The notes beneath the pieces are model-generated. The model was not told where the DNA came from, ran no database searches, and saw nothing but the letters and a program-made list of their open reading frames with translations. A DNA stretch of 16,246 nucleotides from a virus (Duplodnaviria; Heunggongvirae; Uroviricota; Caudoviricetes): IMG/VR virus record IMGVR_UViG_2698536348_000016; one strand, written 5' to 3'. Made by a program: the position numbers and the translations under genes. Shown here piece by piece: positions 12,495 through 16,246 of the stretch (positions are counted from its first letter, which is position 1; every line of letters begins with the position of its first letter).

Positions 12495-12623
12495 TACTGG
12501 CCCTGGAAGTGGGAGCGAGTCTGCGCCGCGCTGCGGGAGCTGAACAAGCACCGGGATATTGTTCGACAGATTGTCGATTCATCCGGTCGTATTGTGTCGG
12601 AAAAGTGATTGCCGGAGGCGCTT

Positions 12624-13775: not shown

Positions 13776-13880
13776 ATGTCGGATGATATATCACTGGCAA
13801 TGGAAGGTGCGCTGGCTGTTGTTGCTGTTGTGGGCGTTTACTGCCTGGTTGTGTTTTTGATGGATCGACTAGGGAACTGA
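13776..13880 (+). CDS. Small hydrophobic peptide (34 aa)
   Basis: AAGGAGGG RBS 4 to 5 nt upstream of ATG; MSDDISLAMEGALAVVAVVGVYCLVVFLMDRLGN, single predicted TM segment. Confidence 0.45.
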   Translation: MSDDISLAMEGALAVVAVVGVYCLVVFLMDRLGN

Positions 13881-13890
13881 ATTCATTACG

Positions 13891-13908
13891 ATATGGGAAT
13901 TCCCATAT
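13891..13908. repeat. Perfect 18-bp palindrome ATATGGGAATTCCCATAT
   Basis: Self-complementary 18-mer 11 nt downstream of the peptide stop and just upstream of the putative hok promoter. Confidence 0.6.
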
Positions 13909-13922
13909 CGGGTAAAAACGGT

Positions 13923-13950
13923 TTGCGGTAAAGCGAGAGTTAAGTAGAAT
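13923..13950 (+). promoter_or_regulatory. Putative hok mRNA promoter
   Basis: TTGCGG (-35), 16-nt spacer, TAGAAT (-10); predicted 5' end near 13957 (GGGTGCTTGAGG), which is complementary to the 3' segment 14331..14343. Confidence 0.35.
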
Positions 13951-13994
13951 TGCTGCGGGTGCTTGAGGCTGTCTGCCTCGGGCATGCCACCGTA

Positions 13995-14090
13995 AGGCAG
14001 ACAGAGAAAAGCCCCAGTTAACATTACGCGTCCTGCAAGACGCCTAACATTAATCTGAGGCCAATTTCATGCTAGACACATGTAGGTTAG
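13995..14090 (-). ncRNA. Expected Sok-like antisense RNA region (approximate)
   Basis: Inferred from hok/sok architecture: antisense to the leader and upstream in-frame start; minus strand has TTGCCT, 17 nt, TAACCT promoter-like hexamers near 14113..14085 and hairpin GCGTC ctgcaa GACGC (plus 14027..14042). Boundaries not resolved. Confidence 0.3.
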
Positions 14091-14125
14091 CCTCTTACGC
14101 GCCGAAAGGCAAGGAGAAGCAGGCT

Positions 14126-14281
14126 ATGAAGCAGCAAAAGGCGATGTTAGTCGCCCTGATCGTCATCTGTATTACCGTCGTAGTGACGGCACTGGTAACG
14201 AGGAAAGACCTCTGCGAGGTACGAATCCGAACCGGTCAGACGGAGGTTGCTGTCTTCACAGCTTACGAACCTGAGGAGTAA
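14126..14281 (+). CDS. hok: Hok/Gef-family type I toxin (51 aa)
   Basis: MKQQKAMLVALIVICITVVVTALVTRKDLCEVRIRTGQTEVAVFTAYEPEE, close to HokD/HokC (Gef) as I recall them; AAGGAG RBS 9 nt upstream; ORF track 14069..14281 includes an in-frame upstream ATG. Confidence 0.9.
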   Translation: MKQQKAMLVALIVICITVVVTALVTRKDLCEVRIRTGQTEVAVFTAYEPEE

Positions 14282-14349
14282 GAGACCAGGCGAGGGAGAA
14301 ATCCCTCGCCACCTCTGATGTGTCAGGCATCCTCAACGCACCCGCACTT

Positions 14350-14371
14350 AACCCGCTTCGGCGGGTTTTTT
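14350..14371 (+). terminator. Intrinsic terminator of the hok transcript
   Basis: AACCCGC ttcg GCGGGTT followed by a T6 run; the same 20-mer recurs at 15191..15210. Confidence 0.7.
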
Positions 14372-14490: not shown

Positions 14491-14670
14491 ATGAGCTACG
14501 CACTAAAAAAACACCCGCGATTGACTATTCCCCCTCGCGATAAAAGCGTTGTGGCAGCTCCGCGCCCGGCTATCGATGAAAATTGCACTCATCGTGAGCA
14601 GGTGAAAAATGCTTTCGATTTCGGTTTTTCTCGTTACGAGAAGGCAATGGAAGAACTTTCAAAAGTGTAA
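14491..14670 (+). CDS. Small protein (59 aa), candidate antitoxin partner of the Doc-family toxin
   Basis: ATG at 14491 (ORF track starts at TTG 14446); MSYALKKHPRLTIPPRDKSVVAAPRPAIDENCTHREQVKNAFDFGFSRYEKAMEELSKV; stop 18 nt before the toxin ATG. Not Phd-like by eye, so the role is inferred from position only. Confidence 0.4.
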   Translation: MSYALKKHPRLTIPPRDKSVVAAPRPAIDENCTHREQVKNAFDFGFSRYEKAMEELSKV

Positions 14671-14688
14671 TGATGGGTATTGTGCTCT

Positions 14689-15174
14689 ATGGCTGAGATT
14701 GTTGAAGGAGTGCACTACCTTTCGTTTGATGATCTTACCGAAATTAATCGCCTTTTAATTGAGCTTCAAACACCAGATGAACCTGTTAGTGTGCTGAGTG
14801 TTGATAATTTAAGTTCTTCTCAGTCTCGTCCCAGCATGGTTCGATGGTATGAACAGACTAATGACATGTTTGTACTGGCATCAGTATTGATTGAAAGTCT
14901 GATTCAGAATCATCCATTTGCTAATGCAAACAAACGAACAGCTATGATGGCTGGTTATGTCTTCTTGTTGTTGAATGGCTATGAGTTAACAGCACCAGGC
15001 GATGAAATCGTGGAAATGGCAGAGGGACTGGCCTGCAAAACCTATACTCGAGAAGATCTCGAGAACTGGTTGTGTTATTGGTCTCGTGCGTATGACAGCC
15101 GGGAATTATGTAAAACAGGCGCAACTATTGTTTTGTATGAAACTATCAAGCTTAAAATAGAACAGCAAAACTAA
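14689..15174 (+). CDS. Doc-family (Fic-fold) toxin
   Basis: Contains HPFANANKRTAMMAGYVFLLLNGYEL, matching the Doc motif H-x-F-x-(D/N)-(A/G)-N-K-R and following helix (P1 Doc has HIFNDANKRTALNSALLFLRRNG as I recall). ATG 14689 chosen; TTG 14680 is the alternative. Confidence 0.8.
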   Translation: MAEIVEGVHYLSFDDLTEINRLLIELQTPDEPVSVLSVDNLSSSQSRPSMVRWYEQTNDMFVLASVLIESLIQNHPFANANKRTAMMAGYVFLLLNGYELTAPGDEIVEMAEGLACKTYTREDLENWLCYWSRAYDSRELCKTGATIVLYETIKLKIEQQN

Positions 15175-15188
15175 AGGTGCTTCTAATG

Positions 15189-15210
15189 AAAACCCGCTTC
15201 GGCGGGTTTT
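15189..15210. terminator. Bidirectional intrinsic terminator between convergent doc-like and higA-like genes
   Basis: AAAACCCGC ttcg GCGGGTTTT: perfect hairpin with an A-run upstream and T-run downstream. Confidence 0.7.
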
Positions 15211-15224
15211 GTTGTATTGGAGTA

Positions 15225-15542
15225 TCATGATATTACCTGGATCCCGTTTTTCTCTACGACTGAAAGAAGGCGAAGAGCGGCACCTCCCGGCCGTTTTACA
15301 CCACGTTCCCAGTCTGATATCAGGTTTTTACTGACGTTGAGGTATCTGGCAAAAACAGGTTGAGACAGATGCTCTCGTTCGCGCAGTGCACGGATCCTTT
15401 CCGGAGACATTACCGGCGCTGGCTGGAGACAAGTTTCATCGAATTCTCGCATAGTCTGTTTCGTTACTGCGCCGATATCATGAAGCGATTCCATCATTTC
15501 ATGTACGGATGCAAGCGCATCACTGCGGTAATTTTTACTCAT
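15225..15542 (-). CDS. HigA-like antitoxin (XRE-family HTH)
   Basis: 105-aa ORF MSKNYRSDALASVHEMMESLHDIGAVTKQTMREFDETCLQPAPVMSPERIRALREREHLSQPVFARYLNVSKNLISDWERG...; ATG overlaps the last codons of the upstream toxin frame (CCCAATGAGTAA), toxin-first order typical of higBA. Confidence 0.85.
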   Translation of the reverse strand: MSKNYRSDALASVHEMMESLHDIGAVTKQTMREFDETCLQPAPVMSPERIRALREREHLSQPVFARYLNVSKNLISDWERGVKRPGGAALRLLSVVEKNGIQVIS

Positions 15543-15905
15543 TGGGTACCTCCGTAAACTGACCCTGTAGAATCAGTTGTGCCAGTTGTTCATCTGTTAG
15601 ATTGAGTACGTGAGGAGCCGCCTTCCGAAATGCACTTTCCGCAGTAGCGGTTATATTTTCACGTTCATTTTTTGCGTATGCATATACGAAAAAGGCCCTT
15701 GTGCCGACGCGATAGAAAATGATTGTGCGATAACCGCCAGATTTGCCGCCACCGACTCGTGGCAGACGTTGCTTGATAACGCCGTTACCCAGGTTTGCTG
15801 AGATAAGCCCGTTATCAGCCTGTTTAACAATTTCGCGCAGTGATTGGTCGGATATTTTGTTTTGCGTGCAAATCGCTCAAACCAGGCGTTTTTAAAAATG
15901 CGCAT
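15535..15905 (-). pseudogene. HigB/Gp49-like RelE-superfamily toxin, disrupted by a frameshift in an A-run
   Basis: ATG at 15905 gives MRIFKNAWFERFARK, then the frame derails to the unrelated tail of ORF 15651..15968; the -1 frame continues NKISDQSLREIVKQADNGLISANLGNGVIKQRLPRVGGGKSGGYRTIIFYRVGTRAFFVYAYAKNEREN...QFTEVPNE to a stop at 15535 but has no start codon of its own. Break maps to the A4 run at plus 15860..15863. Confidence 0.75.
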
Positions 15906-15972: not shown

Positions 15973-16002
15973 TTGACAACGTCGCGTGTTCGGGGCTATA
16001 TT
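15973..16002 (+). promoter_or_regulatory. Near-consensus sigma70-type promoter
   Basis: TTGACA (15973..15978), 18-nt spacer, TATATT (15997..16002); divergent from the higB-like promoter region. Confidence 0.5.
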
Positions 16003-16007
16003 CCTCA

Positions 16008-16083
16008 CGCGCCAGCAAAACCTGGCGTCGGGATTAGCACCCCGGATATCGAAACGGTGCATAACCGCGCTGGCGGTTTTTTT
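16008..16083 (+). ncRNA. Candidate small RNA or terminated leader (about 76 nt)
   Basis: Lies between the promoter above and an intrinsic terminator AACCGC gctg GCGGTT plus T7 (16063..16083); contains a further hairpin CGCCAG caaaac CTGGCG; the only ORF across it is a GTG-started frame that reads through the terminator. Confidence 0.4.
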
Positions 16084-16246
16084 ATGCGCTAAGCACAGTC
16101 ACATTCGCGATTTATGGCGGGCTGTGTGGGGGAGCCGAATGAGGTGTACTGACAATAGCGGACACTACCATTTGTTCTTTTTTTAAGCAGCTATCTGATG
16201 ATATTTTTCCCTGAAGGCTGCCGGGGAGATATTCCCCAGACGAGAG

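What the first reader, a model, noticed from the sequence alone, without database searches (positions are those of the whole stretch)
13923..14371. Complete hok/sok-type locus with long-range 5'-3' mRNA complementarity
Besides the Hok/Gef-like CDS, the flanks carry the family's regulatory architecture: a candidate promoter (TTGCGG, 16 nt, TAGAAT), a predicted 5' end GGGTGCTTGAGG (13957..13968) complementary to CCTCAACGCACCC (14331..14343) near the 3' end as in the tac/fbi pairing, a leader hairpin CTGTCTGCC...GGCAGACAG (13969..14004), a 3' hairpin GGCGAGGG agaaat CCCTCGCC (14290..14311) and an intrinsic terminator. This argues the locus is functional, not a decayed remnant. An in-frame ATG at 14069 could give an N-terminally extended product.
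Basis: partly seen in the sequence, partly recalled or inferred. Interest (0 to 1): 0.45.

Follow-up and report, generated by a model that had tools for sequence, protein, structure and literature searches.

The report
Intact hokD-type hok/mok/sok toxin module
This is a complete copy of a well-known small toxin-antitoxin module, a membrane-killing peptide gene kept silent by mRNA folding and a short antisense RNA, and it sits in a decayed prophage, so the finding is correct but ordinary.

Summary
- a weak promoter;
- a 415-nt mRNA whose 5' end (tac, 13957-13968) pairs with fbi (14331-14343);
- a metastable 5' hairpin and a leader hairpin;
- ucb, which masks the mok Shine-Dalgarno;
- an antisense Sok promoter and hairpin;
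- the 51-aa Hok CDS, a 3' GNRA hairpin and a terminator.

Support comes from three sources. Rfam RF01794 scores 117 bits, Pfam HOK_GEF gives E = 5.6e-24, and the full-length fold has z = -8.8. In silico removal of about 40 nt from the 3' end switches tac to ucb, as in the R1 model.

The toxin is 94% identical to K-12 HokD. The K-12 copy keeps only the part from 14112 onward, so this window holds the untruncated ancestral form, which has already been described. A relative sharing its regulatory sequences, hokW-sokW of prophage Sp5, is an experimentally proven TA system.

The module lies in a prophage remnant. A 10-kb deletion removed immunity and replication genes, and an IS600 end sits at the right edge. 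Two type II TA modules follow it.

One side observation is less ordinary. The roughly 20 nt around the mok AUG, which is the Sok 5' tail, is hypervariable among near-identical loci.

Verdict: already known, low interest.

The parts
13923..13950 (+). hok promoter: -35 TTGCGG (13923-13928), 16-nt spacer, -10 TAGAAT (13945-13950)
   Evidence: Read from the sequence. Among homologues the -10 lies at a fixed 6-nt distance from the mRNA start, and a TTG lies 16-17 nt upstream in most contexts. It is below the threshold of the consensus scanner, which fits the known weak hok promoter.
13957..14371 (+). Full-length hok mRNA (predicted, 415 nt)
   Evidence: The Rfam sok/hok-leader model starts at 13957. 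The terminator ends at 14371. Homology among loci runs from about 13945 to about 14371. The fold has z = -8.8.
13957..13968 (+). tac (translational activator element), the 5' end of the mRNA
   Evidence: Pairs with fbi in the full-length fold and with ucb in the 3'-shortened fold. Nearly invariant in 42 homologues.
13957..13988 (+). Metastable 5' hairpin of the nascent transcript (tac 13957-13969 paired with 13975-13988)
   Evidence: The first 38 nt fold at -21.2 kcal/mol. 92.7% of cells are paired across 42 loci. A G-to-A change at tac position 12 is matched by C-to-U in this hairpin.
13969..14004 (+). Stable leader hairpin (CUGUCUGCCU ... AGGCAGACAG)
   Evidence: Seen. 94.5% of cells are paired, and two pairs carry compensatory changes (A-U, G-C and U-A at one pair).
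14007..14017 (+). ucb (upstream complementary box, the anti-SD of mok). The same DNA encodes the base and U tract of the Sok terminator on the other strand
   Evidence: In the full-length fold 14011-14017 pairs with 14055-14061, which includes SD-mok. In the shortened fold 14009-14015 pairs with tac. The pairing is conserved in 99% of cells but is invariant, so it offers no covariation.
14003..14077 (-). Predicted Sok antisense RNA (about 70-75 nt): a 5' tail of about 15 nt (14077-14063), a long hairpin (14062-14010) and UUUUCUCU
   Evidence: Folds at -32.9 kcal/mol, z = -6.2. The start is inferred from the -10 position. It overlaps SD-mok and the mok AUG.
14084..14112 (-). sok promoter: -35 TTGCCT (14112-14107), 17-nt spacer, -10 TAACCT (14089-14084)
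   Evidence: Both hexamers are conserved in the alignment, with an alternative TTGACC/TAATCT pair in some loci. The plus-strand heptamer TAGGTTA is the one replaced in the promoter-less sokW mutant of PMC8621323.
14024..14047 (+). Apical GC-rich extension of about 20 nt in the hairpin shared by the hok leader and Sok. It is absent from one prophage variant (L028), from hokC-like loci and from Erwinia loci
   Evidence: Nine of the 42 alignment rows have a gap of 14-21 columns here. The Rfam alignment shows the same region as a 16-nt insertion. The helices are 14024-14026 with 14045-14047, and 14028-14032 with 14039-14043.
14057..14094 (+). Sok-target hairpin of the activated mRNA: SD-mok GAGG (14057-14060) paired with dcb (14090-14094), an upper stem holding the mok AUG, and the loop CUAGACA (14072-14078)
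   Evidence: Taken from the Rfam structure. The basal stem is invariant. Every allele of the variable upper part refolds into the same shape, at -11.5 to -16.9 kcal/mol.
14069..14281 (+). mok reading frame (70 codons), in frame with hok and sharing its stop codon
   Evidence: The ORF list. Most database homologues are called as 70-aa products. The start codon and its SD are conserved.
14126..14281 (+). hok CDS (51 aa, HokD type), with its SD GGAG at 14113-14116
   Evidence: Pfam HOK_GEF E = 5.6e-24. 94% identical to K-12 HokD. PGAP names the identical ML35 gene hokD.
14264..14267 (+). UACG at the Tyr47 codon: the TadA A-to-I editing motif (Tyr to Cys recoding)
   Evidence: TACGAA is invariant in 42 of 42 loci. 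The motif and the recoding are described for the family in bioRxiv 10.1101/2025.08.07.668861. Editing was not tested here.
14289..14310 (+). 3' hairpin GGCGAGGGA-GAAA-UCCCUCGCC (GNRA loop)
   Evidence: Present in the fold. 97-98% of cells are paired, and two pairs switch G-C to A-U in 12 and 14 loci.
14331..14343 (+). fbi (fold-back inhibitory element)
   Evidence: Forms 12 bp with tac, with C14337 bulged. 96.6% of cells are paired, and one pair is compensatory, G-C to A-U in 4 Kluyvera loci. Two diverged plasmid loci show the same end pairing with different sequences.
14350..14371 (+). Intrinsic terminator (7-bp stem, UUCG loop, T run)
   Evidence: Found by the terminator scan. Compensatory changes occur in the stem.

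Best explanation
This is a sequence-intact hok/mok/sok type I toxin-antitoxin module of the HokD (RelF) lineage, carried as cargo of a lambdoid prophage that in this genome has decayed to a remnant.

The mechanism is inferred from the R1 paradigm. Each sequence or structure step was checked here in silico.
1. A weak promoter makes a 415-nt mRNA.
2. While the RNA is nascent, tac is held in a metastable 5' hairpin.
3. Once the 3' end is made, tac pairs with fbi. ucb then covers the mok Shine-Dalgarno, so the RNA is neither translated nor bound by Sok.
4. Slow 3' exonucleolytic trimming of about 40 nt removes fbi.
5. tac switches to ucb. This frees SD-mok and forms the target hairpin that presents the mok AUG region.
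6. A strongly transcribed, unstable antisense RNA of about 70-75 nt (Sok) binds this hairpin through its 5' tail of about 15 nt. That blocks mok translation and so blocks hok translation. The duplex is then degraded.
7. If Sok synthesis stops, through loss of the element, transcription shut-off or prophage induction in intact relatives, the stable processed mRNA is translated. The 51-aa Hok peptide then inserts into the inner membrane and kills or arrests the cell. Tyr47-to-Cys editing by TadA probably increases its potency.

Shown here: all sequence elements, both alternative pairings, their conservation, and some covariation. Inferred: transcription, processing, Sok action, toxicity and the biological role.
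For: - Family matches: Rfam RF01794 gives 116.9 bits. Pfam HOK_GEF gives E = 5.6e-24.
- Prevalence and annotation: 667 homologues were found, mostly called as 70-aa Hok-family proteins. The region has a match in 4,721 of 5,426 complete E. coli genomes, and the listed top hits are annotated hokD.
- Full-length fold: it contains tac/fbi and the ucb/SD-mok pairing, with z = -8.8.
- Refolding: deleting the last 36-46 nt in silico switches tac to ucb.
- Metastable hairpin: -21.2 kcal/mol.
- Conservation across 42 loci at 63-96% identity: 93.9% of cells are paired for the full-length model. 16 pairs have changes on both sides, against 8.4 in shuffles and 5-10 in slid controls.
- Coupled covariation: tac position 12 changes together with its fbi partner and with its metastable partner in the four Kluyvera loci.
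- Diverged relatives: an R1-like plasmid locus and a second plasmid locus fold with the same end pairing but different sequences.
- sok promoter: its -10 is identical to the one whose mutation unleashed HokW toxicity.
- Comparison with K-12: hokD there shares only 14112-14371, matching the published view that relBE insertion truncated an ancestral 70-codon locus (PMC6379469).
Against: - No transcript, processing or killing data exist for this copy.
- Chromosomal hok loci tested earlier did not mediate post-segregational killing (summarised in bioRxiv 10.1101/2025.08.07.668861).
- The promoter -35 is poor: the two hexamers together match 8 of 12 consensus positions.
- tac/ucb and most of tac/fbi are invariant, so covariation support for them rests on one pair.
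- The long-range helix 14069-14087 with 14311-14330 in this window's fold is not conserved. Cognate pairs average -14.3 kcal/mol and non-cognate pairs -14.0.
- The prophage context here is decayed, so any induction-linked role cannot operate in this genome.
Confidence: 0.88

Rival explanations
1. The locus is intact in sequence but functionally silent. It would be a chromosomal relic, like the K-12 and ECOR chromosomal hok loci, that persists only because it has not yet accumulated mutations.
For: Earlier work found that chromosomal hokA, hokB and hokC loci neither mediate post-segregational killing nor respond to rifampicin. The host prophage here is a remnant with a 10-kb deletion and an IS600 end. 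The -35 is weak. Tyr47 rather than Cys means full toxicity may depend on editing.
Against: No element carries a lesion. The locus is 100% identical to the copy in a full-length ML35 prophage. Nucleotide diversity is below 0.05 over most regulatory elements in 64 loci, which indicates purifying selection. HokD peptide and 42 of 45 tested Hok homologues are toxic. hokW-sokW, which shares the regulatory sequences, is a working TA pair.
Confidence: 0.1
2. The real product is the 70-aa protein from ATG 14069, an N-terminally extended Hok, rather than the 51-aa peptide. mok would not be merely a regulatory frame.
For: The 70-codon frame is in frame with hok and shares its stop. Gene callers report 70-aa products for most homologues. 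Translation of mok therefore necessarily yields a protein that contains the whole Hok sequence.
Against: A separate GGAG lies 9 nt before ATG 14126. This region is invariant across 42 loci. Codons 2-5 of the extension fall in the hypervariable patch, where RNA structure rather than peptide sequence is conserved. The rest of the extension coincides with the conserved sok promoter on the other strand. K-12 HokD lacks the extension yet is toxic. In an R1-like locus the mok-equivalent frame is out of frame with hok.
Confidence: 0.07
3. On biological role: in intact relatives the module may serve the phage rather than act as an addiction or defence module. It would be a lysis or release helper fired on prophage induction, as shown for hokW-sokW. 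In this window it would then be a leftover of that function.
For: hokW-sokW increases Sp5 release about two-fold, and HokW appears after RecA-dependent induction. In 6 of 6 annotated records hok lies between the replication genes and Q, and is co-oriented with the neighbouring early-right genes. Early rightward transcription would therefore run through hok and head-on into the sok promoter; this step is inference.
Against: The immunity and replication regions are deleted in this window, so this trigger cannot work here. R1 hok/sok instead excludes phage T4 and stabilises plasmids. Two more TA modules sit next to hok, which fits a generic addiction or defence island equally well.
Confidence: 0.3

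Closest known systems
hokD (relF) of the E. coli K-12 Qin prophage
   Same: The toxin is 48/51 identical. The DNA is about 97% identical from the hok SD (14112) through the 3' hairpin, fbi and terminator. Both lie in the replication-to-Q interval of a lambdoid prophage.
   Different: K-12 lacks everything upstream of 14112: the hok promoter, tac, the leader hairpin, ucb, the Sok body, the mok start and the sok -10. relBE sits there instead. The window holds the untruncated form, which the literature calls the ancestral 70-codon hokD (PMC6379469).
hokW-sokW of Sakai prophage 5 (Sp5), PMC8621323
   Same: It is a prophage-borne hok/sok. The published primer sequences match the window's tac, leader hairpin, sok promoter region, 3' hairpin and fbi regions, apart from a few changes that keep both hairpins base-paired (my reading of the sequences). 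The sok -10 heptamer is the same. Both toxins are 51 aa.
   Different: The Sok-tail/target allele differs: CTCAATCCATGCTGAAC in hokW against CCAATTTCATGCTAGAC here. The Hok C-terminus also differs: VDYESEK against TAYEPEE. hokW has been tested experimentally and this copy has not. Sp5 is inducible, whereas this prophage is a remnant.
hok/sok (parB) of plasmid R1, the family archetype
   Same: The architecture is the same: tac/fbi end pairing, a metastable hairpin, ucb/SD-mok sequestration, the tac/ucb switch after 3' trimming, Sok with a single-stranded 5' tail plus a stem-loop, and the mok requirement (PMC9841398 and PMC1635323). An R1-like plasmid locus folded here shows the same end pairing.
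   Different: The toxin is only about 40% identical. tac is GGGUGC rather than GGCGC. The predicted Sok is longer, about 70-75 nt against 64 nt, because of the roughly 20-nt apical extension. mok is in frame with hok here but out of frame in the R1-like locus. The module is carried by a prophage rather than a plasmid.

Membership tests
[quoted passage not shown] | A Hok/Gef-type toxin ORF of about 50 aa with an N-terminal transmembrane helix | tested here: met
   Pfam HOK_GEF gives E = 5.6e-24 and 83.9 bits against a cut-off of 22, covering profile positions 1-42 of 42. 667 homologues were found. NCBIfam Hok models match but score below their cut-offs, 48 bits against 73.
[quoted passage not shown] | A mok reading frame that starts upstream with its own SD and overlaps hok | tested here: met
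   GAGG is at 14057-14060 and ATG at 14069, opening 70 codons that share the hok stop. The SD is invariant and the ATG nearly so in 42 loci. The requirement of mok for hok translation was not tested.
[quoted passage not shown] | A cis-encoded antisense RNA (Sok) whose promoter lies inside mok and whose transcript covers the mok translation initiation region | tested here: met
   At sequence level only. TTGCCT, 17 nt and TAACCT lie on the minus strand and are conserved. The -10 is identical to the one mutated in sokW. A hairpin plus U tract follows, with z = -6.2. The transcript itself was not observed.
[quoted passage not shown] | Long-range 5'-3' pairing (tac/fbi) that closes the full-length mRNA | tested here: met
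   12 bp in the minimum-free-energy fold, z = -8.8. 96.6% of cells are paired in 42 loci, with one compensatory pair. Diverged plasmid loci pair their ends with different sequences.
[quoted passage not shown] | ucb masks SD-mok in the full-length RNA; after 3' trimming tac pairs with ucb and SD-mok pairs with dcb | tested here: met
   Both states are predicted by folding the full and 3'-shortened RNAs. The pairings are conserved. tac/ucb never varies, so covariation is uninformative for it.
[quoted passage not shown] | A metastable 5' hairpin that sequesters tac in the nascent transcript | tested here: met
   -21.2 kcal/mol for the first 38 nt. 92.7% of cells are paired, with covariation at tac position 12.
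[quoted passage not shown] | Slow 3' processing to an active mRNA, Sok-dependent repression, and killing when Sok decays | not testable with these tools
   This needs Northern blots with a rifampicin chase, and genetics. It has been shown for R1 and in part for hokW-sokW.
HokD (RelF) orthologue group | High identity to K-12 HokD, and location in the replication-to-Q interval of a lambdoid prophage | tested here: met
   48/51 residues are identical. PGAP names the identical ML35 gene hokD. The genomic position is shared with Qin and four phage records.

The most novel reading that the evidence does not exclude
The roughly 20-nt patch around the mok AUG (14060-14082) may be under diversifying selection. 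It corresponds to the Sok 5' tail and to the loop and upper stem it first contacts. On this reading the patch sorts otherwise near-identical prophage hok/sok modules into at least ten mutually non-cross-reacting 'specificity alleles' that recombine as cassettes, so that one prophage's Sok cannot disarm another's hok.

Evidence for: diversity in the patch is 0.27-0.32, against less than 0.05 in most of the locus, including the hok coding region. The hairpin shape is kept in every allele. Predicted cognate tail-target duplexes are -20 to -26 kcal/mol, against -2 to -15 for non-cognate pairs.

Evidence against: 4 of 11 multi-copy genomes carry two copies of the same allele. Complementarity is automatic for a cis-antisense pair, so relaxed constraint is a live alternative.
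Probability: 0.3. Interest if true: 0.45.

Novelty: already known. Interest (0 to 1): 0.15.

Why it matters
As a finding it mainly confirms annotation. A textbook RNA-regulated toxin module is present in complete form where the laboratory strain K-12 has only a stump. It gives a clean reference for what an untruncated hokD locus looks like, coordinate by coordinate.

The small added value has two parts:
- All three alternative tac pairings (metastable, fbi, ucb) can be read off a prophage copy and are conserved.
- Sok-recognition sequences are strikingly variable among near-identical loci. The latest family survey explicitly left this regulatory layer unanalysed.

If that variability reflects specificity, it bears on how several hok/sok copies coexist in one cell, with a median of 2 and up to 10 matching places per E. 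coli genome.

Tried and rejected
1. I first assumed the whole window was colinear with the ML35 prophage. A whole-window search showed this is wrong. The left 12.5 kb is host DNA plus int, exo, bet and gam. A 10,077-bp deletion joins a recE stub to the DUF1627 tail at 12505/12506. The right end runs into IS600. The idea that early rightward transcription reads through hok therefore applies only to intact relatives.
2. I tested whether the variable mok-start patch covaries with the 3' UTR segment it pairs with in this window's fold. It does not: cognate pairs average -14.3 kcal/mol and non-cognate pairs -14.0. That long-range helix is allele-specific and is not part of the conserved model.
3. 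I tested whether co-resident copies avoid sharing a Sok-tail allele. Seven of 11 multi-locus genomes differ and 4 share an allele. That gives no support for exclusion. The sample is small and one allele dominates it.
4. A loose viral-contig pattern scan returned mostly chance matches.
5. The consensus promoter scanner flagged neither the hok nor the sok promoter. Promoter calls therefore rest on conservation and on the sokW mutant.
6. NCBIfam Hok models match only below their cut-offs, so the hokD name rests on identity to K-12 HokD rather than on a model.
7. I did not run structure prediction, fold searches or large protein-library searches. A 51-aa peptide of a known family would gain nothing from them.

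Full report
**1. Observation**

- The promoter is TTGCGG (13923-13928), 16 nt, then TAGAAT (13945-13950).
- GGGTGCTTGAGG (13957-13968) is complementary to CCTCAACGCACCC (14331-14343), with one bulged C at 14337.
- The leader hairpin pairs 13969-13978 with 13995-14004.
- The 3' hairpin is GGCGAGGGA-GAAA-TCCCTCGCC at 14289-14310.
- The terminator lies at 14350-14371.
- The ATG at 14069 opens a 70-codon frame that ends at the hok stop codon.

None of this is chance. Rfam's hok-leader/sok model RF01794 matches 13957-14131 end to end, with 116.9 bits and E = 1.5e-26. The 51-aa ORF matches Pfam HOK_GEF over the full profile, with E = 5.6e-24. The 415-nt RNA folds 8.8 standard deviations below its shuffles.

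**2. What it is**

The region has a match in 4,721 of 5,426 complete E. coli genomes, with a median of two places per genome. In the listed top hits the CDS is annotated hokD. It also occurs in 101 phage records and in P1-like and other plasmids.

The toxin is 48/51 identical to K-12 HokD and about 40% identical to an R1-like Hok. Aligned with the K-12 hokD locus, homology begins only at window 14112, inside the sok -35 box, and runs to the terminator. In K-12 relBE occupies the place of everything upstream. The window therefore holds the untruncated form. The literature already describes this form as the ancestral hokD of about 70 codons that relBE integration cut down (PMC6379469).

**3.

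- The in-frame ATG at 14069 is mok. Its SD (GAGG, 14057-14060) is the regulated ribosome-binding site of the family.
- The sok promoter lies on the minus strand: -35 TTGCCT (14112-14107), 17 nt, -10 TAACCT (14089-14084). Both are conserved. The plus-strand heptamer TAGGTTA is the sequence replaced in the promoter-less sokW construct, which unleashed HokW toxicity.
- The predicted Sok runs from about 14077 to about 14003. It has a 5' tail of about 15 nt, a 53-nt hairpin and UUUUCUCU. It folds at -32.9 kcal/mol with z = -6.2. It is longer than R1's 64-nt Sok because of an apical GC-rich extension of about 20 nt (14024-14047). Nine of the 42 aligned loci lack this extension.
- The first 38 nt of the mRNA fold into a hairpin that pairs tac with 13975-13988, at -21.2 kcal/mol. 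This is the metastable structure described for R1 (PMC9841398).

**4. The folding switch**

In the full-length minimum-free-energy fold, tac pairs with fbi. At the same time ucb (14011-14017) pairs with the SD-mok region (14055-14061).

Truncating the RNA in silico at 14325-14335 mimics the roughly 39-nt 3' trimming known for R1. tac then pairs with ucb (14009-14015) and SD-mok is released. This reproduces the published model without any constraint being imposed.

**5. Comparative test**

I collected 125 loci from viral contigs and species-representative genomes. From these I aligned 42 representatives that are 63-96% identical to the window.
- For the full-length model, 93.9% of cells are standard pairs, and 16 pairs have changes on both sides. 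Shuffles give 8.4 such pairs and slid controls give 5-10.
- tac/fbi is paired in 96.6% of cells. It is almost invariant and has a single compensatory pair, G-C to A-U in four Kluyvera loci.
- The same tac position covaries with its partner in the metastable hairpin. One tac base thus changes in step with two different partners.
- tac/ucb never varies, which says nothing for or against it.
- The leader hairpin, the 3' hairpin and the terminator each show compensatory changes.
- Two diverged plasmid loci, one of them R1-like, fold with the same end pairing using GGCGCUU:AAGCGCC and GGUGCUG:UGGCACC.
- The hok -10 keeps a fixed 6-nt distance from the mRNA start in all 55 distinct upstream contexts.

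**6. Context**

My first assumption of colinearity with the ML35 prophage was wrong.
- Window 79-12506 matches ML35 host genes (sap, rnb) plus int, exo, bet, gam and the 3' stub of recE.
- Window 12506-16139 matches ML35 again, but 10,077 bp further on and at 100% identity.
- The missing block holds kil, the cI/cro/cII region and the replication genes.
- From 16140 the window enters an IS600 end.
- No complete E. coli genome in the collection holds this arrangement in one piece.

The module therefore sits in a decayed prophage. Two type II TA modules lie directly downstream. One is a 59-aa ORF plus a Doc/Fic toxin. The other is a RelE-family toxin plus an HTH antitoxin on the minus strand.

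In six annotated records hok lies between the replication genes and Q, on the same strand as the neighbouring early-right genes. These are the intact ML35 prophage, K-12 Qin and four phage genomes.

**7. Mechanism and role**

The best-supported mechanism is the canonical hok/sok pathway set out in the best explanation. The sequence and structure steps are shown here. Transcription, processing, Sok action and killing are inferred from R1 and from hokW-sokW.

The role is less certain.
- For Sp5, the module helps phage release after induction. The conserved co-orientation with the early genes suggests an untested trigger in intact relatives: early transcription running into the sok promoter.
- In this window that trigger is gone. 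The module is then either an addiction element that helps the remnant persist, or simply not yet decayed.

**8. Side observation**

Among 64 loci at least 85% identical to the window, nucleotide diversity is below 0.05 over most of the locus, including nearly all of the hok coding region. It reaches 0.27-0.32 at 14060-14082.
- This patch covers the mok AUG, the first mok codons, the predicted Sok 5' tail and the target loop.
- It occurs as discrete alleles, at least ten of them. Each refolds into the same hairpin, at -11.5 to -16.9 kcal/mol.
- Alleles differ at 3-9 of 15 tail positions. Predicted cognate tail-target duplexes are -20 to -26 kcal/mol, against -2 to -15 for non-cognate pairs.
- Alleles are shuffled relative to 3' UTR variants.
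- Co-resident copies are not obliged to differ: 7 of 11 multi-locus genomes differ and 4 share an allele.

Diversifying selection for Sok specificity is possible. Relaxed constraint on a cis-antisense pair is not excluded. The latest family survey did not analyse Sok, mok or the mRNA elements.

**9. Verdict**

The object is a known, already annotated family member, and close relatives have been characterised experimentally. Novelty: already known. Interest: low (0.15).

Noticed in passing
window 14060-14082: This is a hypervariable patch among near-identical hokD-type loci. Diversity is 0.27-0.32 here, against less than 0.05 over most of the locus. It covers the mok AUG, the Sok 5' tail and the target loop. 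At least ten discrete alleles exist and all keep the hairpin shape. Non-cognate Sok-tail/target duplexes are predicted to be much weaker than cognate ones. Alleles are not mutually exclusive within genomes: 4 of 11 multi-copy genomes share one.
   Followed up: partly
window 12505/12506: This is a clean deletion junction relative to the ML35-type prophage. 10,077 bp are missing: most of recE, kil, cI/cro/cII and the replication genes. The junction has only 1-2 nt of microhomology. No complete E. coli genome in the collection has this arrangement in one piece.
   Followed up: partly
window 16140-16246: The homology to the prophage stops here. The sequence continues as the end of an IS600 (IS3 family) element, 97-99% identical to annotated IS600 copies. 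It interrupts the region just downstream of the isrK match.
   Followed up: partly
window 14491-15873: Two type II toxin-antitoxin modules lie directly downstream of hok/sok, making three TA modules in about 2 kb. The first is a 59-aa ORF with no family match (14491-14670) plus a Doc/Fic toxin (14689-15174, Pfam Fic E = 2.9e-11). The second, on the minus strand, is a RelE-family toxin (15535-15873, PF06296 E = 5.5e-36) plus an HTH antitoxin (15225-15542).
   Followed up: partly
window 15996-16083: Rfam matches isrK (RF01394, 74.3 bits, 16009-16083) and the c4 antisense-RNA target a1b1 (RF03163, 47.4 bits, 15996-16048). In ML35 this spot lies upstream of ORF6N and antirepressor genes. It looks like a P1/P22-type antirepressor control region, now cut off by IS600.
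   Followed up: no
window 14264-14267: The Tyr47 codon UAC is followed by G, giving the TadA A-to-I editing motif that would recode Tyr to Cys. TACGAA is invariant in all 42 aligned loci. The motif is described for the family in bioRxiv 10.1101/2025.08.07.668861.
   Followed up: partly
window 13890-13909: This is a perfect 20-nt palindrome, GATATGGGAATTCCCATATC. It lies 9 nt after the stop of a small ORF and 13 nt upstream of the hok -35. The half I could check (13900-13909) is shared by the loci with the same upstream flank and absent from the other upstream types. Its function is unknown.
   Followed up: no
window 13776-13880: This is a 34-aa hydrophobic ORF (MSDDISLAMEGALAVVAVVGVYCLVVFLMDRLGN) just upstream of hok. 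It is annotated as a hypothetical protein in ML35 and has no Pfam match.
   Followed up: no
L096 (275 nt) and L100 (431 nt): Tiny contigs in assemblies labelled Acinetobacter idrijaensis and Xanthomonas pisi carry hok fragments 87-91% identical to this Escherichia locus. Contamination of those assemblies seems likely. Similarly, a record named Actinobacillus phage vB_Apl-pPE4 holds a locus that is 93.8% identical.
   Followed up: no
L126 463-679: In an R1-like plasmid locus the annotated mok-equivalent (a DUF5431 protein, 463-615) is out of frame with hok. In the window, mok and hok share frame and stop codon. The family therefore has two different mok/hok frame arrangements.
   Followed up: no
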